Below are positions 4,564 through 47,169 of a DNA stretch of 64,000 nt, in pieces. The position numbers were made by a program, and so were the translations under genes. This stretch comes from Alphaproteobacteria bacterium. GTDB taxonomy: Bacteria; Pseudomonadota; Alphaproteobacteria; Caulobacterales; Parvularculaceae. Below the pieces are notes generated by a model. It was not told where the DNA came from and ran no database searches. It was given only the letters and a program-made list of their open reading frames with translations. The stretch is from the NCBI GenBank assembly GCA_013151255.1, contig JAADIQ010000120.1, positions 20,894 through 84,893 on the forward strand, read 5' to 3'. Numbering within the stretch: position 1 is the first letter of the stretch; every line of letters starts with the position of its first letter.

Positions 4564-7191
4564 ATGTTGCATTTCATAGAGAAGATCCTGATCGCCTGGG
4601 CGGACGCGGCAAGGCGCGGCGGCCTGGCGCTGGCGCTCGGCTTTATCGCCGTGACGGGGTTGGCTGGCTATTACGCCGCTACCCATCTCAAGGTGAACAC
4701 CGACACCAGCGCGATGCTTGATCCGTCGCTGCCATTTCAGCTTCGCGCGGCGGCGCTGCGCGACGCCTTTCCGCAAACCAAAACCGACATCATTGTCATC
4801 GCGCGGGCAAAAACGCTGGACGAGGCGGACGCCTTCATCGCTGATTTGCGCGCCGTGGTCGCAGAAGAAAAGACCGCCTTCACCAGCGTTTTCGCCCCCG
4901 CGCAAGAGCCGTTCTTTCAGAAAAACGGGCTGCTCTATCTCAGCGAAGATGCGCTTGAAGACCGGCTGACGCAGATGTCGAAAGCCTCCGGGTTGATTGA
5001 GACGCTGATCAAAAGCCCGACCATCGGCACGCTATTCACCACCCTTGCCGGCAACGACAAACTCGCCGAGCGCTCCGACCTCGGCCAGGACACGCTGCAA
5101 CAACTCTACAAAGAGTTGAGCGTTGTCGTTGAGGCGAGCATCGAAGGAGAGGTCAGACCGTTCTCGTGGATGGGCGCGCTGGATGAGGACATCGCCGCCA
5201 GCGACAGCCATACGCGGCTCCTATACGCAACGCCGGTGCTCGACTTTAGTCGGCTGCAACCGGCCAAAGCCGGCATCGAAGTTCTGCGCGGCGAAATTGA
5301 CGCGCTGTCTCAAAAATATAGCGGCCGGGTTAAGGCCTATGTCACTGGCGATCCGGCGTTGCGGGTGGAAGAACTTGAAGCGGTCACCACCGGCATCGGC
5401 CTGTCGATGGTGCTTTCGCTGATCCTGGTGAGCCTGCTTTTACTGCTGTGTTACCGCTCCGCGGCGATGGTGGTGCTGACTTTGACCGGGCTCATCATCA
5501 CCTTGGTTTTGACGTCAGCTTTTGCAGCCGCGTTTTTGGGCGAGTTAAATCTGGTTTCCGTCGCCTTTACGGTGTTGCTGATCGGGCTGGGGCTCGATTT
5601 TGCCATTCACCTCCTCTTACATGTGCAAGAGCGCCGCGATGATGGCCAGGACAACGCCGCCGCGCTCACCGGCGCCTTGCATGAGGTTGGCCCGGCGATG
5701 GCGCTGGCCGCGCCGACAACGGCGCTGGCGTTTTTATCTTTTGTGCCGACGAAATTTGACGGCATCGCCCAGCTCGGGATGATTTCCGCCGCCGGGGTGA
5801 TTATCGCCTTTATGGTTTCCGTCACCTTCCTGCCGGCGGCGCTGGCGCGTCTTCCCGCCGCGAAAGTTAGAAAACGAAGCGGCCGCATTCGCGCGATTTT
5901 TCAATCCCTGTCGAAGGTCGCGGGACCGGTCGCGTTCGTGACCGTCCTGATCGGCATCTTTGCGCTCCTGTTAATGCCGCAGGTGCGCTTTGACGCTGAC
6001 CAAATGTCGCTGCGCAACCCCAATGCGCCCTCTGTCATCGGCTTCAATATGCTGTTTGACGACGCGGCAACCGTGCCCTACCGGCTAACCCGGCTGGTCG
6101 GCAGCGAAGCGGCCGCGCGCGAGACCTCAGCCGAGGCGGCGGCGCTGCCATCGGTCGCCAGCACCCGGTCATTGCCGGATTTTGTGCCTGAAGATCAGGA
6201 CGAAAAGCTTGAATTAATCGATTTCGCGGCGGGAACACTGGTGTTCGCCCTCGCCGCCGAGCCCGCCAGCATTGCCGGCCCACCTGCGACTGAGGGTATC
6301 GCCAAATTACAGGCCCGGCTCAAAGAAGCGTATACGGACGGCCCCGGCGCACGCCTTGCTGCACTACTCGGCGATTTGGCGGCAGTGGGCGATCCAGCCG
6401 CTATAGAGCGTCTTGAGCGGAATACCTTTCTCTATTGGCCGCAACTGGTAGAACGCCTGAGCGCGCAAATGAACGCTGATTATATTGATGTCGATAGTTT
6501 GCCCACCTCATTACGCGAGCGATATTTATCAGCGGACGGTATCTGGCGCGTCGACATTCTTCCCAAACAGGACCTACGCGACAACAATGCGCTGAACGCA
6601 TTTGTCGACGACGTCGAAAAACATTTTCCCGATCTTACCGGTGGCGCACTGCAATCGAAAAAAGCTGGTGAGGTTATTTCCAACGCGATGCTTCAGGCGA
6701 CCCTGATTGCATTCGCGGTGATCGCCGTTTTCCTCTGGCTGTTGGTGCGGCGCATCCTGACGGTGCTGCTGGTTCTGTTTCCGTTGTTGCTCGCCGCCAT
6801 CCTCACCGCTGCAACCGGCGTTTTGCTGGACGCGCCGTTTAACTACGCCAATGTCATCGTCTTGCCGTTGTTGATCGGCATCGGCGTCGATAGCGGCATC
6901 CATCTGGTCATGCGCCACGACCAGGTAACCGCCGGCGAAGGCGTCTATGGCACATCAACGCCGCGGGCAGTCCTGTTTGCGGCGCTGACCACGGTCGCCT
7001 CCTTTGGCAGCTTGATGTTGTCACCGCATCGCGGCACCGCCAGCATGGGCGAGTTGCTGACCATCGCCCTCGCGATCACCATAATTTGTACGCTGGTGGT
7101 TTTGCCGGCGGCTTTTAATTACGCCGACAAGCGCCTGAAAGACCGCCTCGAAGCCATGGCCAATCGCCGTAATATTCAGAAGAAACAATAG
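4564..7191 (+). CDS. hpnN: MMPL/RND family hopanoid transporter
   Basis: 875 aa, two TM bundles each with a GxGxD motif (GLGLDFAIH, GIGVDSGIH), large extracytoplasmic loops, hpn context. Confidence 0.85.
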   Translation: MLHFIEKILIAWADAARRGGLALALGFIAVTGLAGYYAATHLKVNTDTSAMLDPSLPFQLRAAALRDAFPQTKTDIIVIARAKTLDEADAFIADLRAVVAEEKTAFTSVFAPAQEPFFQKNGLLYLSEDALEDRLTQMSKASGLIETLIKSPTIGTLFTTLAGNDKLAERSDLGQDTLQQLYKELSVVVEASIEGEVRPFSWMGALDEDIAASDSHTRLLYATPVLDFSRLQPAKAGIEVLRGEIDALSQKYSGRVKAYVTGDPALRVEELEAVTTGIGLSMVLSLILVSLLLLLCYRSAAMVVLTLTGLIITLVLTSAFAAAFLGELNLVSVAFTVLLIGLGLDFAIHLLLHVQERRDDGQDNAAALTGALHEVGPAMALAAPTTALAFLSFVPTKFDGIAQLGMISAAGVIIAFMVSVTFLPAALARLPAAKVRKRSGRIRAIFQSLSKVAGPVAFVTVLIGIFALLLMPQVRFDADQMSLRNPNAPSVIGFNMLFDDAATVPYRLTRLVGSEAAARETSAEAAALPSVASTRSLPDFVPEDQDEKLELIDFAAGTLVFALAAEPASIAGPPATEGIAKLQARLKEAYTDGPGARLAALLGDLAAVGDPAAIERLERNTFLYWPQLVERLSAQMNADYIDVDSLPTSLRERYLSADGIWRVDILPKQDLRDNNALNAFVDDVEKHFPDLTGGALQSKKAGEVISNAMLQATLIAFAVIAVFLWLLVRRILTVLLVLFPLLLAAILTAATGVLLDAPFNYANVIVLPLLIGIGVDSGIHLVMRHDQVTAGEGVYGTSTPRAVLFAALTTVASFGSLMLSPHRGTASMGELLTIALAITIICTLVVLPAAFNYADKRLKDRLEAMANRRNIQKKQ

Positions 7192-8261: not shown

Positions 8262-9149
8262 TCAGCTCTTCCGCTCAAACACAAAATCCGCGGCGCCTTT
8301 CAGCGGCGCGGCGACATCCCCGAACCGGTCCAAATGCGCTTTCGCGCTTTCCACCAGCTCAGCCGCTTTGGCTTTGGCGCCGTCCATGCCGAACAGTTTG
8401 ATGAAGGTCGCCTTGTCCATTTCGCTGTCCTGCCCGACCGGCTTGCCGAGTGCTTGCGCGTCGCTGGTCTCATCGAGGATGTCGTCGACAATCTGGAAGG
8501 CAAGACCGAGGTCTTCCGCATAGGCGCTGAGCGCTGCGATCTCGTCAGTCGACCCGCCGCCCACAATACCGCCGCCGACCGCGCCAAAGCGGATGAGGGC
8601 GCCGGTTTTCAGGCGCTGTAATTGCGTGACGCCGTCAAGGTCGAAATTCTTTTGCTCGGCATAGATGTCAATCATCTGGCCGCCGACCATGCCTTCCTTG
8701 CCGCTTGCGCGGGCAAGCTCTAGCGCCAGCGCGCAACGGATATTGGCGTCGGGATGGGTTTCTTCCTCCGCCAGAATTTCAAACGCCTGGGTCAACAACG
8801 CATCGCCTGCAAGGATCGCGGTGGCGTCGTCATATTTCTTATGCACCGAAGGCCGCCCGCGTCGCAGGTCGCTATCATCCATCGCCGGCAAATCATCATG
8901 GATGAGGCTGTAACAATGGATCATTTCCACCGCGCAGCTGACCCGAACCGAGCGCACGCGCGGGCAATCAAACATATCCGCCGCGCCAACCACCAGAAAC
9001 GGACGCAGCCTTTTGCCGCCATCAAGCGCGCCCCAGCGCATCGCGTCCGCCACCCGGCCGAGCGGGCCGTCCTGGGTCGGCAGGAATTCATCGAGCGCAG
9101 TCTCCACCAGCGCGGCGATTTCCTTAATGGTTTGAGCAAATACAGACAT
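8262..9149 (-). CDS. ispA: Farnesyl diphosphate synthase / geranyltranstransferase
   Basis: GGKRLRP, SLIHDDLPAMDDSDLRRG, GQMID, KTGAL and FQIVDDILD motifs. Confidence 0.95.
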   Translation of the reverse strand: MSVFAQTIKEIAALVETALDEFLPTQDGPLGRVADAMRWGALDGGKRLRPFLVVGAADMFDCPRVRSVRVSCAVEMIHCYSLIHDDLPAMDDSDLRRGRPSVHKKYDDATAILAGDALLTQAFEILAEEETHPDANIRCALALELARASGKEGMVGGQMIDIYAEQKNFDLDGVTQLQRLKTGALIRFGAVGGGIVGGGSTDEIAALSAYAEDLGLAFQIVDDILDETSDAQALGKPVGQDSEMDKATFIKLFGMDGAKAKAAELVESAKAHLDRFGDVAAPLKGAADFVFERKS

Positions 9150-40561: not shown

Positions 40562-41077
40562 TTATGGTTTAGAAAATTTTGGACTAAATCGTTTCCTGAA
40601 CAAAAACCGCACAATCACACTGGCGGCGATGCCAATTGCGCCTAAAATTATTGGCGCCACAAGAAAAGCATAGCCTGATCTGATTTGATAAAAAGCTGTC
40701 AGCACAGCCGTAACCGCTAACGCAACAAATACTGAGGCAGTAATTGCCAATCCGTATCCGAATTTCCCATCATTTCCTGAATTCAAAGAAATATATATAC
40801 CCGTGAGCAAGGCCTGAATACCACCAAATATATATCCATAAAACGCGACGGTTATAAACGCCCTAGACAGGCTCAAAAATATCTGTATCGGTTCGGCCCG
40901 TACATTGTCTAACCAAGATTGAAAGCCGGTTTCTATGGCTAAATACACATAGATTGAGAGCATCGCTATGATTCCACCAATAGGCGGACCGGCGAGCGTG
41001 TAGATCAGAATAATCCACGGTTGCCTACACTTGTGGGGCGGCGCGTCGCCATCGGTCAAATTGCCCATACTCATCAC
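40562..41077 (-). CDS. Hypothetical membrane protein (AT-rich)
   Basis: About 4 TM segments; composition visibly AT-richer than neighbours; overlaps the upstream stop. Confidence 0.6.
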   Translation of the reverse strand: MMSMGNLTDGDAPPHKCRQPWIILIYTLAGPPIGGIIAMLSIYVYLAIETGFQSWLDNVRAEPIQIFLSLSRAFITVAFYGYIFGGIQALLTGIYISLNSGNDGKFGYGLAITASVFVALAVTAVLTAFYQIRSGYAFLVAPIILGAIGIAASVIVRFLFRKRFSPKFSKP

Positions 41078-41580
41078 CGCATCATCCCCGCCAGCGCGAT
41101 TACAAAAGCAAGCTCGATCAAGACTGTTAGCGGCAATCGCACGCTGAGATACCAGGCCGGGGCACCAGAGCCGCGGCGTGTTGCGTTGAGATCATCGACC
41201 AACAGCACGCCGGTAAGCGCCATGATCGCCGGAAATTTCCAGAGCGCGCCGCCAAGCGGCAACAATAACGGAAAAGCTAACAGCAATGGCGCCGTTGCGC
41301 CCAATAGGCTCCGCATGGTCGGGCCTTCCGGCTTCATGACCACGACGCCCCATCTAACGCCGCCGAAAAAGATGATTACGACAGCGCCATAAAGCCCCAT
41401 AAAACCTGCATATGGTTGAGCGTTATACGCCTGGCTAATAACGATCATCAATGCAGCGGCAATTAACGGCGCCGCCGCCAAATAAGCCAACAGCATCGCT
41501 GCGCCGGTATTAGTTTGCGTTTGCAATGAAGAGACAGAACCGCCGGTTTTTGCGTCAGCAACAAAAGCGTCATAGGCCAT
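41074..41580 (-). CDS. DUF3429-like membrane protein
   Basis: YGAVVIIFFGGVRWG and WYLSVRLPLT pattern. Confidence 0.75.
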   Translation of the reverse strand: MAYDAFVADAKTGGSVSSLQTQTNTGAAMLLAYLAAAPLIAAALMIVISQAYNAQPYAGFMGLYGAVVIIFFGGVRWGVVVMKPEGPTMRSLLGATAPLLLAFPLLLPLGGALWKFPAIMALTGVLLVDDLNATRRGSGAPAWYLSVRLPLTVLIELAFVIALAGMMR

Positions 41581-41626
41581 GATACGTCTCCTTTATTGGC
41601 GCCGAAGCGCGCTGAATGAAACGCAA

Positions 41627-42205
41627 CTAGCTTTTGTCTTTTTCCTTCTTCCCCAAAAATGGCGTCAGAAGGTCAACCGCTTTTGCTCCCATTTTAATCA
41701 GCGGCAGGAGTTTGGATTTTGGAATGGCGTTCATTTGCTCATACCAATCATCCAGCGTATCAACGAGTTCCTGCAAATCCTTTAGGCGTTTGATGGCTGT
41801 TTTCGTCGCCGATGGATCGGTTTGCGCGTCGGCAAGGCAGGCGCGCAACACTTCCGCCGCCGGTTCAAGTTCGCGCTCCTTGCGCATGGCGACGATGTTG
41901 CTCACCATTTCCCAGACATCGCCTTCCGCCTCAAAATGATCGCGGCGGTCGCCAAGGATTGGCGCGCGCCGAACCAAATCCCAGGCCAGCAAATCGCGCA
42001 TGGAGTTGGATACATTTGAACGAGCAAGACCGAGCGTCGCCGCGATTTCTTCCGCCGTCAGCGGCTTTTCACTAATCAGCAGCAAGGCATGAATTTGCGC
42101 GACGGATCGATTGACGCCCCAGGAACCGCCAAGATCGCCCCAGTGCAACACGAAACGCTCGATGGCCGGGGTCAGCTTCACAGTCTTGTCTGTAATTTCT
42201 GTCAT
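41627..42205 (-). CDS. GbsR/MarR family transcriptional regulator
   Basis: FVLHWGDLG..WGVNRSVAQIHALL, winged HTH ARSNVSNS..DL..W and RRDHF motifs. Confidence 0.88.
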   Translation of the reverse strand: MTEITDKTVKLTPAIERFVLHWGDLGGSWGVNRSVAQIHALLLISEKPLTAEEIAATLGLARSNVSNSMRDLLAWDLVRRAPILGDRRDHFEAEGDVWEMVSNIVAMRKERELEPAAEVLRACLADAQTDPSATKTAIKRLKDLQELVDTLDDWYEQMNAIPKSKLLPLIKMGAKAVDLLTPFLGKKEKDKS

Positions 42206-42274
42206 AACAGAAATATCAGAATTACACATAGCAAAAGCAACGGGGCAGGACGCCGCAGGGCGCACTCTCAATCG

Positions 42275-42391
42275 TGGGATTTTTCCCATATGTCAGCTAA
42301 TCTTGGCGCCATATTAGCAATATTACGTTGAAACCGTCCCACGATTGTGTATTTGAACATCTGAATTAGAAAATTCATGGGAACCGTCCCG
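42275..42391. promoter_or_regulatory. Three copies of a TGGGA-N4-TCCCA operator-like palindrome
   Basis: TGGGATTTTTCCCA at 42275-42288, TTGAAACCGTCCCA at 42328-42341, TGGGAACCGTCCCG at 42378-42391. Confidence 0.6.
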
Positions 42392-42393
42392 AT

Positions 42394-43545
42394 ATGACTG
42401 AAATTTCCGACCTCGTCGCCCGTGCTGAGAAAATTGCCGACCAGGCGGGGCTTTCGCTCTCGACGGTCTCGCGCAAGCTGTTGAACGACGGCAAGGGGCT
42501 CGCCCGGCTCAAATCCGGCGGGCAATGCACGCTCAAAACCCTGGAGACAGCGCGCACGCGCCTCGCCGAACTTGAGCAAAGCTACGCGGCGAAAGATCAG
42601 CCACGGCCGGGCGCCGTTACCCCCAAGCCTGACGTCTTGTCCGCTCGGGCAATGACGCATCTTGACCGGCTCGAAGCGGAGAGCATCCACATCATGCGCG
42701 AGGTTGCGGCGGAAGCGGAAAAACCGGTGATGCTGTATTCCGTCGGTAAAGATTCCGCCGTCATGCTGCATCTGGCGATGAAGGCCTTCTACCCCTCCAA
42801 GCCGCCCTTCCCGCTTATGCATGTGGACACCACCTGGAAATTTAAAGAGATGATCGCGTTTCGCGACGAAACGGTCAAACGCCTCGGGCTCGAGTTGATT
42901 GTCCACACCAATGCGGAAGGCGTCGCGCAAGGGATTAATCCGTTTACGCATGGTTCACAAATCCATACCGATGTGATGAAAACCCAAGGGCTGAAACAGG
43001 CGCTTGATAAATATGGCTTCGACGCAGCCTTTGGCGGCGCCCGGCGCGACGAGGAAAAATCCCGCGCCAAGGAGCGTATCTTCTCGTTCCGCTCGCGCGA
43101 GCATCGCTGGGACCCGAAAAACCAGCGCCCCGAGCTTTGGAATATTTACAACACAAAGATCAGCCAGGGCGAATCCATCCGCGTCTTTCCGCTATCGAAC
43201 TGGACCGAGCTTGATATCTGGCAATATATCTACCGCGAGGCGATCCCGATCGTTCCGCTGTATTACGCAGCAAAGCGCCCAGTGGTGAAACGCGACGGCG
43301 TGATGATTATGGTGGATGATGAGCGCATGCCGTTAAACAACGGCGAGCAACCGGTGATGGAAACCGTGCGCTTTCGCACCCTGGGGTGCTACCCATTAAC
43401 CGGCGCGGTAAAATCCGACGCCGCGACGCTGCCGGACATTATCTCCGAAATGCTGACCGCAAGAAACTCCGAACGTGAGGGACGGGTGATCGACCACGAC
43501 CAGTCCGCATCGATGGAGAAGAAAAAGCAAGAGGGGTATTTCTAA
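42394..43545 (+). CDS. cysD: Sulfate adenylyltransferase subunit 2 with an N-terminal HTH extension
   Basis: The core from [12 protein letters not shown] (42652) has [22 protein letters not shown] and RFRTLGCYP. There are 86 extra in-frame N-terminal residues. Confidence 0.95.
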
Positions 43546-43546
43546 A

Positions 43547-45451
43547 ATGGCCAACGCCCCCCTCACCGCCGACGACAATGTCATCGATTATCTCGCCGCC
43601 CATGAGCGTAAAGGGCTGATGCGGTTCATAACTTGCGGCAGCGTTGATGACGGCAAGTCGACGCTGATCGGCCGGCTGCTTTATGACTCGAAGCTGCTCT
43701 ATGATGACCAACTCGCCGCACTTGAAAGCGACACCAAAAAGCACGGCACGCAAGGCGAGAAAATTGACTTTGCGCTGCTGGTGGACGGCCTCGCCGCCGA
43801 ACGCGAACAGGGCATCACCATCGATGTCGCCTACCGGTTTTTCTCCACCGAAAAGCGCAAATTCATTGTCGCCGACACGCCGGGCCATGAGCAATATACC
43901 CGCAACATGGCGACCGGCGCCTCGACCGCTGATCTCGCCATCATCTTGATCGATGCGCGCCGCGGCGTCCTCACCCAGACCAGGCGGCACTCCTATATCG
44001 CCTCGCTGCTCGGCATTCGCCATGTGGTGGTGGCGGTCAACAAGATGGACCTTGTCGGCTACTCCGAAAAAACCTTCCGCGAGATTGAAAGCGCCTATCG
44101 CACCTTTGCCGAACCGCTGGGGTTTCAATCAACCGCCATCATGCCGCTATCGGCGCTGGACGGTGACAACATCCTCACCAAAAGTTCGCATACGCCATGG
44201 TATAATGGCGCCGCGCTGATGCCTTACCTTGAAACCGTCAACCTATCGGCGGTGGACGAGAGCCAACCGTTGCGCATGCCGGTGCAATGGGTGAACCGGC
44301 CGGATCTTGATTTTCGCGGCTTTGCCGGAACCATCGCCAGCGGAACCGTCCGCCCGGGCGATGAAATCGTCGTCCTGCCATCAGCCAAACGCTCTAAGGT
44401 CGCGCGGATTGTGACGATGGATGGCGACATACAAGAGGCCGGCGCCGATATGGCGGTGACGGTGACGCTCGAAGACGAAATCGATATCTCCCGCGGCGAT
44501 ATCATCTGCGCCGGCAACGCGCCGGCGGAACAGACCGACCAATTCGCCGCGCATCTTTTATGGATGGCGGAGGAGAAACTCTTCCCCGGACGACAATATT
44601 TGTTGAAGACCGCAAACCGCATCGTTCCGGCGACGATCACCGAGCTCAAACACAAAGTTAATGTCAACACGCTGGAACATATGTCCGGCAAGACGCTGGA
44701 GCTCAACGAGGTTGGGTTTTGTAACTTCAACCTGTCGCAACAGATTGCCTTTGATCCTTACACCGAAAACCGCCGCACTGGTTCTTTCATTTTGATTGAC
44801 AAGCGCACCAACGCCACAGTTGGCGCCGGGATGATCGATTTCTCGCTCCGGCGCGCGCAAAATGTTCACTGGCAAGACCTCGACATTAATAAAACAGCGC
44901 GCGCCAACGCCAAACATCAACGCCCTTGCGTCCTTTGGTTTACCGGGCTTTCCGGTTCCGGAAAATCGACCGTCGCCAACCTGGTTGAGAAACGCCTCCA
45001 CGATTTGGGTCGCCACACCTATACGCTTGACGGCGACAATGTCCGCCACGGCCTCAACAAAGACCTTGGCTTCACCGACGCTGACCGCGTCGAAAACATC
45101 CGCCGGGTCGCGGAAAGCGCAAAGCTTATGGCCGACGCCGGACTGATCGTCTGCGTTTCGTTCATTTCGCCATTCCAAAGCGAGCGGCGCATGGCGCGTG
45201 AATTGTTGGAGGACGGAGAATTTATCGAAATCTATATCTCAACGCCGCTGGAAGTCTGCGAGCAGCGCGACGTCAAAGGGCTTTACGCCAAGGCGCGGCG
45301 CGGCGAGATCAAAAACTTCACCGGCATCGACAGCGCCTATGAAGCGCCGGAGCATGCGGAGATTGATATTGATACGTCTAATGTCTCCGCCGCCGATGCG
45401 GCGGATGCGATTGTTTCGCATCTACAGGAAAAAGGGTATTTTAAGTTATAA
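43547..45451 (+). CDS. cysNC: Bifunctional sulfate adenylyltransferase subunit 1 / APS kinase
   Basis: [20 protein letters not shown] and NKMD GTPase motifs, then the APS kinase motifs [20 protein letters not shown] and RDVKGLY. Confidence 0.96.
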
Positions 45452-46362: not shown

Positions 46363-47169
46363 CTAGCCGCCAATGACCTCTGTACGCACGTGCCGCCATG
46401 TCTTCCCGCTTCCCGCCACCAACAGCGGACGGCCTTGCGTCGCTTGCGGCGTATAGGGCGCGCCATCGTCGAGATATTCCGCCTTGCCGCCAATCTCGCG
46501 CAACATCAACACACCGGCGGCGTGGTCCCATGGGTGAACACGCGCATAAAGCGCAAAGTCGTGCAGGCCCTGAATGAGGTTGATATAGCCGTATGCGGAG
46601 CAGTGCACCGGTTCGGTCTGAAACTTCTCTTTGAGCTTGGGAACAATGCGCGATTTCCAGGGCTCAGCCATATTGCCGATGGCGCGGTAGCCTTTGAGCG
46701 GCCCTTGAGAGGCTGCAACTGGCGCCAGCGCTTCACCGCGCCAAGTCGCGCCGTCGCCTTTCGAGCCGATGGCGAAGGCTTTGTCCGGAATGGCGTAAAT
46801 CCACCCCTGGCGTATCTCGCCATCTTCAACCAGCGCGACTATGGAGCCGAATTCTGGCCGCCCTTGGACAAAATTGCGCGTCCCATCCAGCGGGTCGACA
46901 ATCCAGAAGGCGCCGTCGCCTTTTAGCCGTTCAACTATCGCCGGCTCGCGGGCGGTTGCCTCCTCGCCGATAAACCCCGCGCCGGGATAGAGATCGTCAA
47001 GCGCACGTTCCAGCCTTGCCTCGGCGGCCTGATCGGCGGCGGTGACAAAATCATTTGGGCCGGATTTGGTTTCAATATCGGACTTGGCGAGCTTGCCGTA
47101 ACGCGAGGTAATTTCTTCTTCGGCAATCTCGGCGATGACCGCTGCGACTTTATCCGGGTCGACAATCAT
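46363..47169 (-). CDS. Inositol monophosphatase family protein
   Basis: FVTAAD, IGEE, WIVDPLDGTRNF and WDHAAG motifs. Confidence 0.92.
   Translation of the reverse strand: MIVDPDKVAAVIAEIAEEEITSRYGKLAKSDIETKSGPNDFVTAADQAAEARLERALDDLYPGAGFIGEEATAREPAIVERLKGDGAFWIVDPLDGTRNFVQGRPEFGSIVALVEDGEIRQGWIYAIPDKAFAIGSKGDGATWRGEALAPVAASQGPLKGYRAIGNMAEPWKSRIVPKLKEKFQTEPVHCSAYGYINLIQGLHDFALYARVHPWDHAAGVLMLREIGGKAEYLDDGAPYTPQATQGRPLLVAGSGKTWRHVRTEVIGG

What the first reader, a model, noticed from the sequence alone, without database searches (positions are those of the whole stretch)
42394..42651. CysD fused to a Cro/cI-like helix-turn-helix: a possible self-regulating ATP sulfurylase
Seen: an 86-aa in-frame extension precedes the canonical CysD start ([10 protein letters not shown] at 42652, with no clear SD). 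It comprises about 62 aa with a four-helix pattern ([16 protein letters not shown] / [10 protein letters not shown] / [12 protein letters not shown] / [12 protein letters not shown]) and a Pro/Ala-rich linker. Established: CysD normally has no DNA-binding domain. The S.ST.SR...NDG...RL..G pattern resembles small lambda-repressor-fold proteins of alphaproteobacterial phages, and trigger enzymes such as PutA and BirA regulate their own genes. Inference: a domesticated phage-like HTH makes ATP sulfurylase a metabolite-responsive repressor of its own operon through the adjacent operators. This would be a regulatory system distinct from CysB.
Basis: partly seen in the sequence, partly recalled or inferred. 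Interest (0 to 1): 0.78.

Follow-up and report, generated by a model that had tools for sequence, protein, structure and literature searches.

The report
Phage Cro-like DNA-binding domain fused to CysD
In this marine alphaproteobacterium and many relatives, the sulfate-activating enzyme CysD carries at its front end a small DNA-binding domain descended from a phage Cro-type repressor, and matching palindromic binding sites surround its own promoter, so the enzyme very probably controls its own operon.

Summary
ORF 42394-43545 encodes a 383-aa protein with three parts: a 4-helix domain of about 66 aa, a Pro/Ala-rich linker, and a complete CysD. It is the only cysD in the genome.

The fusion is real and old:
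- All 95 related loci are open across the junction. They come from Marinicaulis, Amphiplicatus, Hellea, Robiginitomaculum, Sphingorhabdus and others.
- The domain is under purifying selection (dN/dS 0.05-0.26).
- It folds as a lambda-repressor/XRE-like HTH.

Its free-standing homologues (42-44% identical in the two compared pairwise) occupy the Cro position of alphaproteobacterial prophages. Their cI-cro intergenic regions hold TGGGA/C-N4-G/TCCCA palindromes.

The same palindrome, GTGGGA-N4-TCCCAC, abuts the cysD start codon in about 90% of the fusion loci. Further copies or half-sites lie around the predicted promoter. The motif was not found upstream of unfused cysD in the same order. Genome-wide, the best sites are almost all at cysD.

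My best reading is a domesticated Cro-like module that makes CysD autoregulate cysD-cysNC. DNA binding, the direction of regulation and any response to a metabolite are untested. The scan has not noted this on other DNA. I found no published description.

The parts
42394..42594 (+). Cro-like helix-turn-helix domain (residues 1-67 of the CysD fusion). The predicted recognition helix is residues 22-30, LSTVSRKLL.
   Evidence: AF2 gives 4 helices at pLDDT 86. Foldseek top hits are XRE/Cro/CI-type HTH proteins. It is 44% identical to prophage Cro-position proteins. T24, S26, R27, K28, N31, D32, G33 and K34 are invariant. dN/dS is 0.05-0.26.
42595..42651 (+). Pro/Ala-rich flexible linker (residues 68-86).
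   Evidence: pLDDT is below 50 for residues 69-80. Linker length varies from 9 to 56 residues among 95 loci, with no stops.
42652..43545 (+). CysD catalytic core (sulfate adenylyltransferase subunit 2), including the stop codon. It is the only cysD in the genome.
   Evidence: NCBIfam NF009214 scores 557.7 bits against a cut-off of 413, and TIGR02039 scores 527 bits. Pfam PAPS_reduct E = 9e-60. There is a single match in the window's own genome.
43547..45451 (+). cysNC (GTPase subunit fused to APS kinase). It starts 1 nt after the cysD stop and is presumably co-transcribed.
   Evidence: Pfam GTP_EFTU, GTP-eEF1A_C and APS_kinase. Coordinates.
42377..42392 (.). Proximal operator C, ATGGGAACCGTCCCGA. 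It ends 1 nt before the cysD ATG.
   Evidence: A GTGGGA-N4-TCCCAC-type palindrome scoring at least 9 of 12 abuts the domain's start codon in 77 of 84 loci tallied. Its 3' end lies within about 10 nt of the start in most, and it overlaps the start in some.
42327..42342 (.). Central operator B, GTTGAAACCGTCCCAC. It overlaps the -35-like TTGAAA, and its right half-site TCCCACGATTG lies in the promoter spacer.
   Evidence: It is conserved at -67 in the closest Marinicaulis relatives. Half-sites flank or overlap the -35 in other lineages.
42274..42289 (.). Distal operator A, GTGGGATTTTTCCCAT (11 of 12 positions).
   Evidence: A distal copy at about -90 to -150 is present in most related loci.
42328..42355 (+). 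Putative cysD promoter: -35 TTGAAA (42328-42333), a 16-nt spacer, and -10 TATTTG (42350-42355).
   Evidence: This is an inference from the alignment of upstream regions, where TTGACA/TTTACA-N16-17-TAWWTG recurs 20-25 nt upstream of the proximal operator. The consensus scan did not call it. There are no transcription-start data.
41627..42205 (-). Divergent GbsR/MarR-type regulator gene (context only; not part of the conserved module).
   Evidence: Pfam MarR_2 3e-10 and NCBIfam CudC 7e-13, below cut-off. This neighbour is absent in the other lineages checked for it (L022-L026), which still have the fusion and the palindrome.

Best explanation
The N-terminal 66 residues of this CysD are a DNA-binding helix-turn-helix domain descended from a Cro-type repressor of alphaproteobacterial temperate phages. 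It was captured together with its operator type.

The proposed mechanism, all of it inferred:
- The domain is tethered to CysD by a flexible linker and probably acts as a dimer. The sites are palindromic, and CysD-CysN complexes are oligomeric in organisms where they have been studied (background knowledge, not tested here).
- It binds GTGGGA-N4-TCCCAC sites upstream of the -35, inside the core promoter, and in the short leader against the start codon.
- Binding sets transcription of cysD-cysNC according to how much CysD is present, most likely by repression. DNA looping between sites about five helical turns apart is possible.

Shown here: the fusion, its conservation and selection, the fold, the homology to Cro-position proteins, and the restriction of the palindromes to loci that carry the domain in the genomes sampled.

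Inferred: DNA binding, the direction of regulation, and any modulation by substrates or products (ATP, sulfate, APS, PAPS, CysN-GTP).
For: - Fusion and selection.
- Fold: AF2 pLDDT 86. The best PDB matches are C.Esp1396I, HipB, NatR, DdrO, 434 repressor/Cro and SinR (probability about 0.9 for the best, TM 0.55-0.63). The best viral matches have TM 0.70-0.82 and probability 1.00, followed by XRE, Cro and CI proteins. PHROG 7669 E = 7e-6.
- Origin: four free-standing homologues were examined. Two were aligned pairwise to the domain: 44% identity, E = 1e-15, and 42%, E = 2e-11. All four lie divergent from a cI-like repressor (Peptidase_S24, with HTH_3 in three of the four) and upstream of phage replication genes. 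Their intergenic regions carry 2-3 palindromes such as ATGGGCAATTGCCCAT and GTGGGATTATGCCCAT.
- Cis element: the palindrome abuts the ATG in about 90% of 84 loci from lineages with very different GC content. The core GGGA...TCCC is kept in about 70-78 of 79 scored sites.
- Co-occurrence: the motif was not found upstream of unfused cysD in 11 genomes of the same order, except for one marginal 10-of-12 hit at a second cysD paralogue in two of them. It is perfect in the two other fused genomes of that sample.
- Single target: the only perfect site in two complete or nearly complete genomes is at cysD. Other high-scoring sites in the window's genome are intragenic.
- The window's genome has no paralogue of the domain and no second cysD.
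Against: - There is no binding, expression or transcription-start evidence.
- Foldseek E-values are weak (0.05-2), and no Pfam HTH model reaches its threshold.
- The proximal site always sits in or next to the leader, where a Shine-Dalgarno sequence would be, so an RNA-level role cannot be excluded.
- Another, unidentified factor could bind the palindromes.
- The window's own sites B and C are imperfect (10 and 9 of 12).
- 68 of 95 loci, this one included, keep an ATG at the CysD core, so an unfused isoform is possible.
Confidence: 0.72

Rival explanations
1. Translational (RNA-level) autoregulation. The proximal palindrome is transcribed as a GUGGGA-loop-UCCCAC hairpin against the AUG. Either the domain binds it, or the hairpin alone gates ribosome entry. 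The upstream copies would be incidental or serve another function.
For: The proximal site's 3' end lies within about 10 nt of the start codon in most loci, or overlaps it. The predicted promoters place it at about +12 to +30 of the transcript. No Shine-Dalgarno sequence is visible.
Against: - The sequence of the half-sites is conserved, not just their pairing.
- Deviations are not compensated. Outer positions and position 6/11 vary independently.
- Half-sites also occur in everted or widely split arrangements around the -35, where no hairpin would form, and upstream of the promoter.
- The domain is homologous to DNA-binding Cro-type proteins whose DNA operators look the same.
- No Rfam family matches.
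Confidence: 0.1
2. The palindromes belong to a different transcription factor, such as the divergent GbsR/MarR-type regulator or an unlinked repressor. On this reading the CysD N-domain does something else, such as protein-protein contact or oligomerisation.
For: A MarR-type gene lies divergent from cysD in this genus, and site A lies between the two genes. No direct binding data exist.
Against: - The MarR neighbour is missing in the other lineages checked for it (L022-L026), which keep both the fusion and the palindrome.
- The palindrome tracks the domain rather than cysD as such.
- Prophage homologues of the domain sit beside the same kind of operator.
- The residues of the predicted recognition helix are invariant, in parallel with the invariant half-site core.
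Confidence: 0.1
3. Plain concentration-dependent autoregulation with no metabolite sensing. The Cro-like module only buffers CysD dosage, and the fusion merely ties repressor and enzyme stoichiometry together. This is a sub-variant of the best explanation that contradicts the reader's 'metabolite-responsive' claim.
For: - Cro proteins need no ligand.
- The linker is long, variable and disordered (9-56 residues), which argues against a fixed allosteric interface.
- The regulon is essentially the operon itself.
Against: - Known enzyme-regulator fusions (BirA, NadR, PutA, RbkR) are ligand-controlled, as described in the literature and not tested here.
- Every cysD-linked copy seen is a fusion. 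None is a credible separate gene beside cysD. This suggests that physical coupling to the enzyme matters.
Confidence: 0.35

Closest known systems
Phage Cro / CI immunity switches (lambda-repressor-like, XRE-type HTH)
   Same: The domain is homologous to small proteins in the Cro slot of alphaproteobacterial prophages. It shares the fold class. It has 16-bp palindromic operators in two or three copies around a promoter, with nearly the same half-site (TGGGA/TCCCA).
   Different: It is covalently fused to a metabolic enzyme and sits on a chromosomal sulfur-activation operon. No partner CI repressor is present. No Pfam HTH_3 match reaches threshold.
BirA (biotin protein ligase / bio operon repressor)
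   Same: An N-terminal DNA-binding domain sits on an adenylate-forming enzyme that is predicted to control its own pathway operon through a palindromic operator.
   Different: BirA has a winged-helix domain, an unrelated catalytic fold, and a demonstrated co-repressor (biotinyl-AMP) that drives dimerisation. None of this is shown here.
Other enzyme-regulator fusions: PutA, NadR, archaeal RbkR (PMC5397151)
   Same: The concept is the same: a trigger enzyme with a dedicated DNA-binding domain and a small regulon restricted to its own pathway.
   Different: The DNA-binding folds and the enzymes differ. RbkR, NadR and PutA have experimentally defined ligands.
CysB (LysR-type activator of the cys regulon in Gammaproteobacteria)
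   Same: It controls cysDN expression.
   Different: CysB is a separate protein of an unrelated family. It senses N-acetylserine, sulfide and thiosulfate and has a large regulon. Whether a CysB homologue exists in this genome was not tested.
Fungal PAPS reductase with moonlighting transcriptional activity (PMC4848566; abstract only read)
   Same: An enzyme described as a sulfur-assimilation PAPS reductase is reported to act in transcription. Its name suggests the PAPS-reductase family of CysD's Pfam domain (PF01507), but this was not checked.
   Different: It is eukaryotic and is reported as an activator. I did not read the full text, so I cannot say whether it carries a dedicated DNA-binding domain.

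Membership tests
CysD, sulfate adenylyltransferase subunit 2 | Full-length match to the curated CysD equivalog model above its cut-off | tested here: met
   NF009214 scores 557.7 bits (cut-off 413) over residues 82-383. TIGR02039 scores 527.2 bits (cut-off 396.6).
CysD, sulfate adenylyltransferase subunit 2 | PP-loop motif SxGKDS and an adjacent cysN partner gene | tested here: met
   SVGKDS is at residues 116-121, and G118, K119, D120 and S121 are invariant. cysNC starts 1 nt after the cysD stop.
CysD, sulfate adenylyltransferase subunit 2 | ATP sulfurylase activity | not testable with these tools
   It is the only cysD in a genome that is 92% complete, so it is presumably the working enzyme.
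Lambda-repressor-like / Cro-C1 (XRE) HTH domains | Sequence match to a Pfam HTH family of the clan at the gathering threshold | tested here: not met
   The best hit is the LacI HTH at 19.5 bits against a cut-off of 27. HTH_3 was not reported. There is no PDB sequence relative.
Lambda-repressor-like / Cro-C1 (XRE) HTH domains | Compact 4-5 helix fold with a helix-turn-helix | tested here: met
   The AF2 model has pLDDT 86. All but one of the 50 listed PDB matches are XRE-, Cro- or CI-type HTH proteins (probability up to 0.91, TM 0.55-0.63). The best viral matches have TM 0.70-0.82 and probability 1.00. E-values are weak (0.05-2), as is usual for 69 residues.
Phage Cro-type proteins (functional class) | Small protein encoded divergently from a cI-like repressor at the head of the early operon | tested here: met
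   This holds for 4 of 4 free-standing homologues examined. The window's copy is not in a prophage, so it is a derivative of the class and not a member.
Phage Cro-type proteins (functional class) | Binds palindromic operators overlapping the promoter | not testable with these tools
   Palindromes of the right kind and position are present. Binding is inferred.
Trigger enzymes (enzyme that directly regulates transcription) | Catalytic domain and DNA-binding domain in one polypeptide | tested here: met
   There is one open frame in 95 of 95 loci, with purifying selection on the domain and invariant catalytic-core motifs.
Trigger enzymes (enzyme that directly regulates transcription) | Regulatory output depends on the enzyme's substrate or product state | not testable with these tools
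   No data. The variable, disordered linker neither supports nor excludes it.

The most novel reading that the evidence does not exclude
HTH-CysD is a true trigger enzyme. The catalytic or assembly state of the CysD-CysNC complex (APS/PAPS load, or GTP-bound CysN) sets the DNA affinity of a domesticated Cro module. This would give marine Caulobacterales, Parvularculaceae and Sphingomonadaceae a self-contained, CysB-independent feedback loop for sulfate activation. The same Cro-like module would be a portable autoregulation cassette, because it is also fused, with TGGGA-type sites upstream, to an uncharacterised ~380-aa protein family in other Alphaproteobacteria.
Probability: 0.3. Interest if true: 0.8.

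Novelty: new variant of a known kind. Interest (0 to 1): 0.68.

Why it matters
Regulation of sulfate activation in Alphaproteobacteria is, as far as I know, poorly understood. These organisms are abundant in marine surface and biofilm habitats. This fusion offers a concrete, easily tested regulator-operator pair for cysD-cysNC. The cis element is well defined, and cultured carriers exist (Hellea balneolensis, Amphiplicatus metriothermophilus, Hyphococcus, Sphingorhabdus). It would also be a clear case of a phage immunity component, protein and operators together, being recruited to control a housekeeping metabolic operon. It would add an ATP-sulfurylase member to the short list of enzymes that carry their own DNA-binding domain. 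Current annotation calls these proteins simply 'CysD' and misses the domain.

Tried and rejected
- Riboswitch or leader RNA: no Rfam match in 41000-44000 at E <= 1.
- Chance open frame or wrong start: rejected by conservation and dN/dS.
- 'Split' versions (a 68-69-aa gene followed by cysD in ENA assemblies L022-L024): these first looked like a Rosetta-stone fission. They differ from the fused Hellea MAG L091 only by single-base indels, in assemblies that also fragment neighbouring genes. I treat them as assembly errors, not evidence. L026 likewise has an internal deletion or frameshift.
- Divergent MarR/GbsR regulator as owner of the palindromes: rejected, because that neighbour is absent elsewhere.
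- Wider regulon: other sites scoring at least 10 of 12 in the window's genome are intragenic. The G033 extra site lies inside an ORF whose sequence looks like lipoyl synthase (recognised by eye, not searched), and the G024 extra site precedes an unannotated ORF.
- N5-spaced sites on contig C56: not conserved in close relatives. Left unexplained.
- tblastn against 50,697 GenBank phage records: no match.
- PDB sequence search: only spurious ubiquitin hits.
- Literature: three full-text searches found no description of a CysD-HTH fusion.

Full report
**Observation.** The window holds an ATG-initiated ORF at 42394-43545 (+) of 383 aa. Curated CysD models are 294-317 positions long and match only residues 82-383 (NF009214, 557.7 bits against a cut-off of 413). 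Pfam PAPS_reduct covers residues 111-337. Neither ATG has a clear Shine-Dalgarno sequence. cysNC (GTPase plus APS kinase) starts 1 nt after the cysD stop. This is the only cysD in the genome, which is 92% complete.

**Is the extension real coding sequence?** Yes.
- A word-seeded search restricted to residues 1-90 found 251 proteins, and all 120 listed carry PF01507.
- The extension is present in 24 of 24 genomes of the same genus and in 2 of 3 genomes of a second family, always in one open frame.
- A scan of one genome per species returned 80 loci. They come from Marinicaulis (89-94% identical, so the window is probably a Marinicaulis MAG), Amphiplicatus, Parvularculaceae, Hellea, Robiginitomaculum, Litorimonas, Maricaulaceae, and Sphingorhabdus and other Sphingomonadaceae.
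- 79 of 79 analysable loci are fused. No stop separates domain and core in 95 of 95 loci.
- Seventeen positions are invariant in 42 diverse sequences, among them T24, S26, R27, K28, N31, D32, G33, K34, R38, L39, G42, G43, Q44, T46 and T49. The linker varies in sequence and in length, from 9 to 56 residues.
- dN/dS for residues 7-60 is 0.05-0.26. Codon positions 1, 2 and 3 differ at 0.24, 0.15 and 0.59.
- The ATG at the CysD core is kept in 68 of 95 loci and replaced by non-start codons in about a quarter. An additional short isoform is possible here but is not a general feature.
- In an even sample of 401 alphaproteobacterial genomes, only 5 besides this one have the CysD fusion. It is a patchy, lineage-restricted trait.

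**What the domain is.**
- No Pfam or NCBIfam model reaches its threshold. The best hit is the LacI HTH over residues 14-33 (19.5 bits against 27).
- AlphaFold2 predicts four helices (3-18, 22-30, 35-40, 47-67) with pLDDT 86 for the domain alone, and the same helices in the full-length model. The linker is disordered.
- Foldseek against the PDB returns, almost without exception, lambda-repressor-like HTH proteins: controller protein C.Esp1396I, HipB, NatR, DdrO, 434 repressor and Cro, and SinR. Probability is about 0.9 for the best, TM is 0.55-0.63 and E is 0.4-2.
- Against predicted viral structures, the best matches are small uncharacterised phage proteins (TM 0.70-0.82, rmsd 1.5-2.2, probability 1.00), followed by XRE, Cro and CI proteins.
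- PHROG 7669, a phage family of unknown function, matches at E = 7e-6.

**Origin.** An exhaustive search of 1.8 billion representatives found 93 relatives, mostly free-standing proteins of 63-105 aa. A profile search added several hundred more. I looked up four of them on long contigs, from Ponticaulis, Pleomorphomonas and two metagenomes. Two were aligned pairwise to the window's domain: 44% identity (E = 1e-15) and 42% (E = 2e-11). All four lie divergently next to a cI-like repressor (Peptidase_S24, with an HTH_3 domain in three of the four). All four are followed by phage early genes such as primase/Toprim, Prim-Pol, DnaB, ANT and GcrA-like. That is the Cro position of a temperate-phage immunity region. 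Their cI-cro intergenic regions carry two or three palindromes of the form TGGGA/C-N4-G/TCCCA, for example ATGGGCAATTGCCCAT, GTGGGATTATGCCCAT and ATGGGATCATGCCCAT. Some of these sit in the spacer of a TTGACT-N17-TACAAT promoter.

**The cis element.** In the window, three sites of the same architecture lie between the divergent regulator gene and cysD:
- A, 42274-42289, GTGGGATTTTTCCCAT
- B, 42327-42342, GTTGAAACCGTCCCAC
- C, 42377-42392, ATGGGAACCGTCCCGA, ending 1 nt before the ATG

Their centres are 53 and 50 bp apart.

Across 84 loci with very different GC content, 77 have a GTGGGA-N4-TCCCAC site of at least 9 of 12 next to the start codon. Its 3' end lies within about 10 nt of the ATG in most, and it overlaps the ATG in some. 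The core GGGA and TCCC are kept in about 70-78 of 79 scored sites, and the spacer is A/T-rich. Most loci have a second copy at -90 to -150.

Aligning the upstream regions shows a recurring TTGACA/TTTACA-N16-17-TAWWTG promoter 20-25 nt upstream of the proximal site. The distal site lies 6-8 nt upstream of the -35 in the Hellea group. In Parvularculaceae lineages, half-sites overlap the -35, lie in the spacer, or flank the -35 as everted or widely split pairs. By the same pattern, the window's promoter would be TTGAAA (42328-42333) and TATTTG (42350-42355). Site B would then overlap it and site C would lie in a leader of about 30 nt. This is an inference, and the simple consensus scan did not call it.

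**Does the element belong to the domain?** Three lines of evidence say so.
1. *Co-occurrence.* Among 16 genomes of the same order, the two with fused cysD have perfect palindromes. Eleven genomes with unfused cysD have no site of at least 10 of 12 within 450 nt upstream, except one marginal hit at a second cysD paralogue in two of them.
2. *Specificity.* The only perfect site in the 2.7-Mb genome G033, and in Hellea balneolensis, is the one at cysD. In G037 and G013 all hits are at cysD. In the window's genome the other high-scoring N4 sites are intragenic.
3. *Homology.* Prophage relatives of the domain sit next to operators of the same architecture. The predicted recognition helix differs between the two groups (STVSRK against STFGRY/R), in step with the inner half-site base (TCCCA against GCCCA).

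The divergent GbsR/MarR-type gene is not the owner of the sites. It is absent in the other lineages checked for it (L022-L026), which keep both the fusion and the palindrome. The window's genome has no paralogue of the domain.

**Mechanism.** The best-supported reading is a domesticated Cro module. The tethered HTH domains of an oligomeric CysD-CysNC complex occupy operators that bracket and overlap the promoter and the start of the leader, so the amount of CysD sets transcription of its own operon. Repression is more likely than activation, for two reasons: sites lie in the spacer and downstream of the predicted start, and Cro-type proteins are repressors. Whether binding responds to ATP, sulfate, APS, PAPS or CysN-GTP is unknown. 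The long, variable linker argues against a rigid allosteric interface. On the other hand, every cysD-linked copy is a fusion rather than a neighbouring gene, which suggests that coupling to the enzyme matters.

An RNA-level role for the proximal site cannot be excluded, but three things disfavour it: sequence rather than pairing is conserved, deviations are uncompensated, and the half-sites near the -35 could not form a hairpin.

**Corrections made along the way.** Several ENA assemblies appear to encode the domain as a separate 68-69-aa gene ahead of cysD. They differ from the fused Hellea MAG only by single-base indels, and neighbouring genes are fragmented too, so these are assembly errors. 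No phage record in GenBank matched by tblastn, so the phage link rests on prophage context, PHROG 7669 and fold.

**Known or new?** Three full-text searches found no description of a CysD with a DNA-binding domain, or of this operator. Public annotations call these proteins simply CysD. The scan's index holds no similar note on other DNA. Conceptually it joins BirA, NadR, PutA and RbkR (PMC5397151) as an enzyme with its own DNA-binding domain. A fungal PAPS reductase has also been reported to moonlight in transcription (PMC4848566). I class it as a new variant of a known kind, well supported by comparative evidence but with no experimental data.

Noticed in passing
L021:4840-4856, 4870-4886, 5664-5680, 8977-8993 (= G000 contig C56:22839-26992): Four near-perfect GTGGGA-N5-TCCCAC sites lie within 4 kb. 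They use the same half-sites as the cysD operators but have a 5-nt spacer. Two sit in and just after a TTGACG-N17-TATCTT promoter. They lie upstream of a secreted repeat protein, a DUF6502 protein, a DUF5666 protein and an unannotated 271-aa ORF. No HTH_3 gene is on that contig, and the genome has no paralogue of the Cro-like domain, so the binding factor is unknown and could even be HTH-CysD. The cluster is not conserved in five close relatives.
   Followed up: partly
L131-L134 (G177:C2, G313:C1, G183:C1, G118:C73): The same Cro-like domain (34-41% identical) is fused, through a low-complexity linker, to an uncharacterised C-terminal region of about 380 aa. That region contains a VFDAGMGDG motif that looks like a methyltransferase motif and has no Pfam or NCBIfam match. 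This was seen in 4 of 401 sampled Alphaproteobacteria. L132 and L134 have GTGGGATTTTTCCCAA and ATGGGAATCTGCCCAA upstream. One representative, P0175, joins the domain to a sequence that looks by eye like a CN-hydrolase/NAD-synthetase N-terminus; no family search was run on it.
   Followed up: partly
window 42189-42220: A 14-nt-arm inverted repeat, TCTGTAATTTCTGT-CATA-ACAGAAATATCAGA, is centred on the likely start codon (42205) of the divergent GbsR/MarR-type regulator. A related AACATCTGAATTA box lies at 42356-42368. This may be the MarR-type protein's own operator.
   Followed up: no
window 42188-42206 and 42393-42411: The two divergent genes begin with nearly the same 19 nt (TATGACAGAAATTACAGAC and TATGACTGAAATTTCCGAC, both encoding MTEI...). 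Together they form a long-range inverted repeat. This may be coincidence.
   Followed up: no
window 46363-47169 (-): An inositol-monophosphatase-family gene (Pfam Inositol_P, 1e-41) lies close to cysNC. By family it could be a CysQ-type PAP phosphatase, which would fit PAPS production at this locus.
   Followed up: partly
L022-L025 (ENA assemblies ERZ10646226, ERZ10646630, ERZ10646675, ERZ25072999): These assemblies fragment cysD, cysN and neighbouring genes through single-base indels. Gene calls from them create false 'stand-alone' domain proteins in protein databases (for example P0135, P0217, P0133).
   Followed up: yes
L130:4849-5793; also L022:7018-7962, L024:6040-6984, L026:6698-7642: A conserved 314-aa ORF with no Pfam match directly follows cysNC in L022, L024, L026 and G033.
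   Followed up: no
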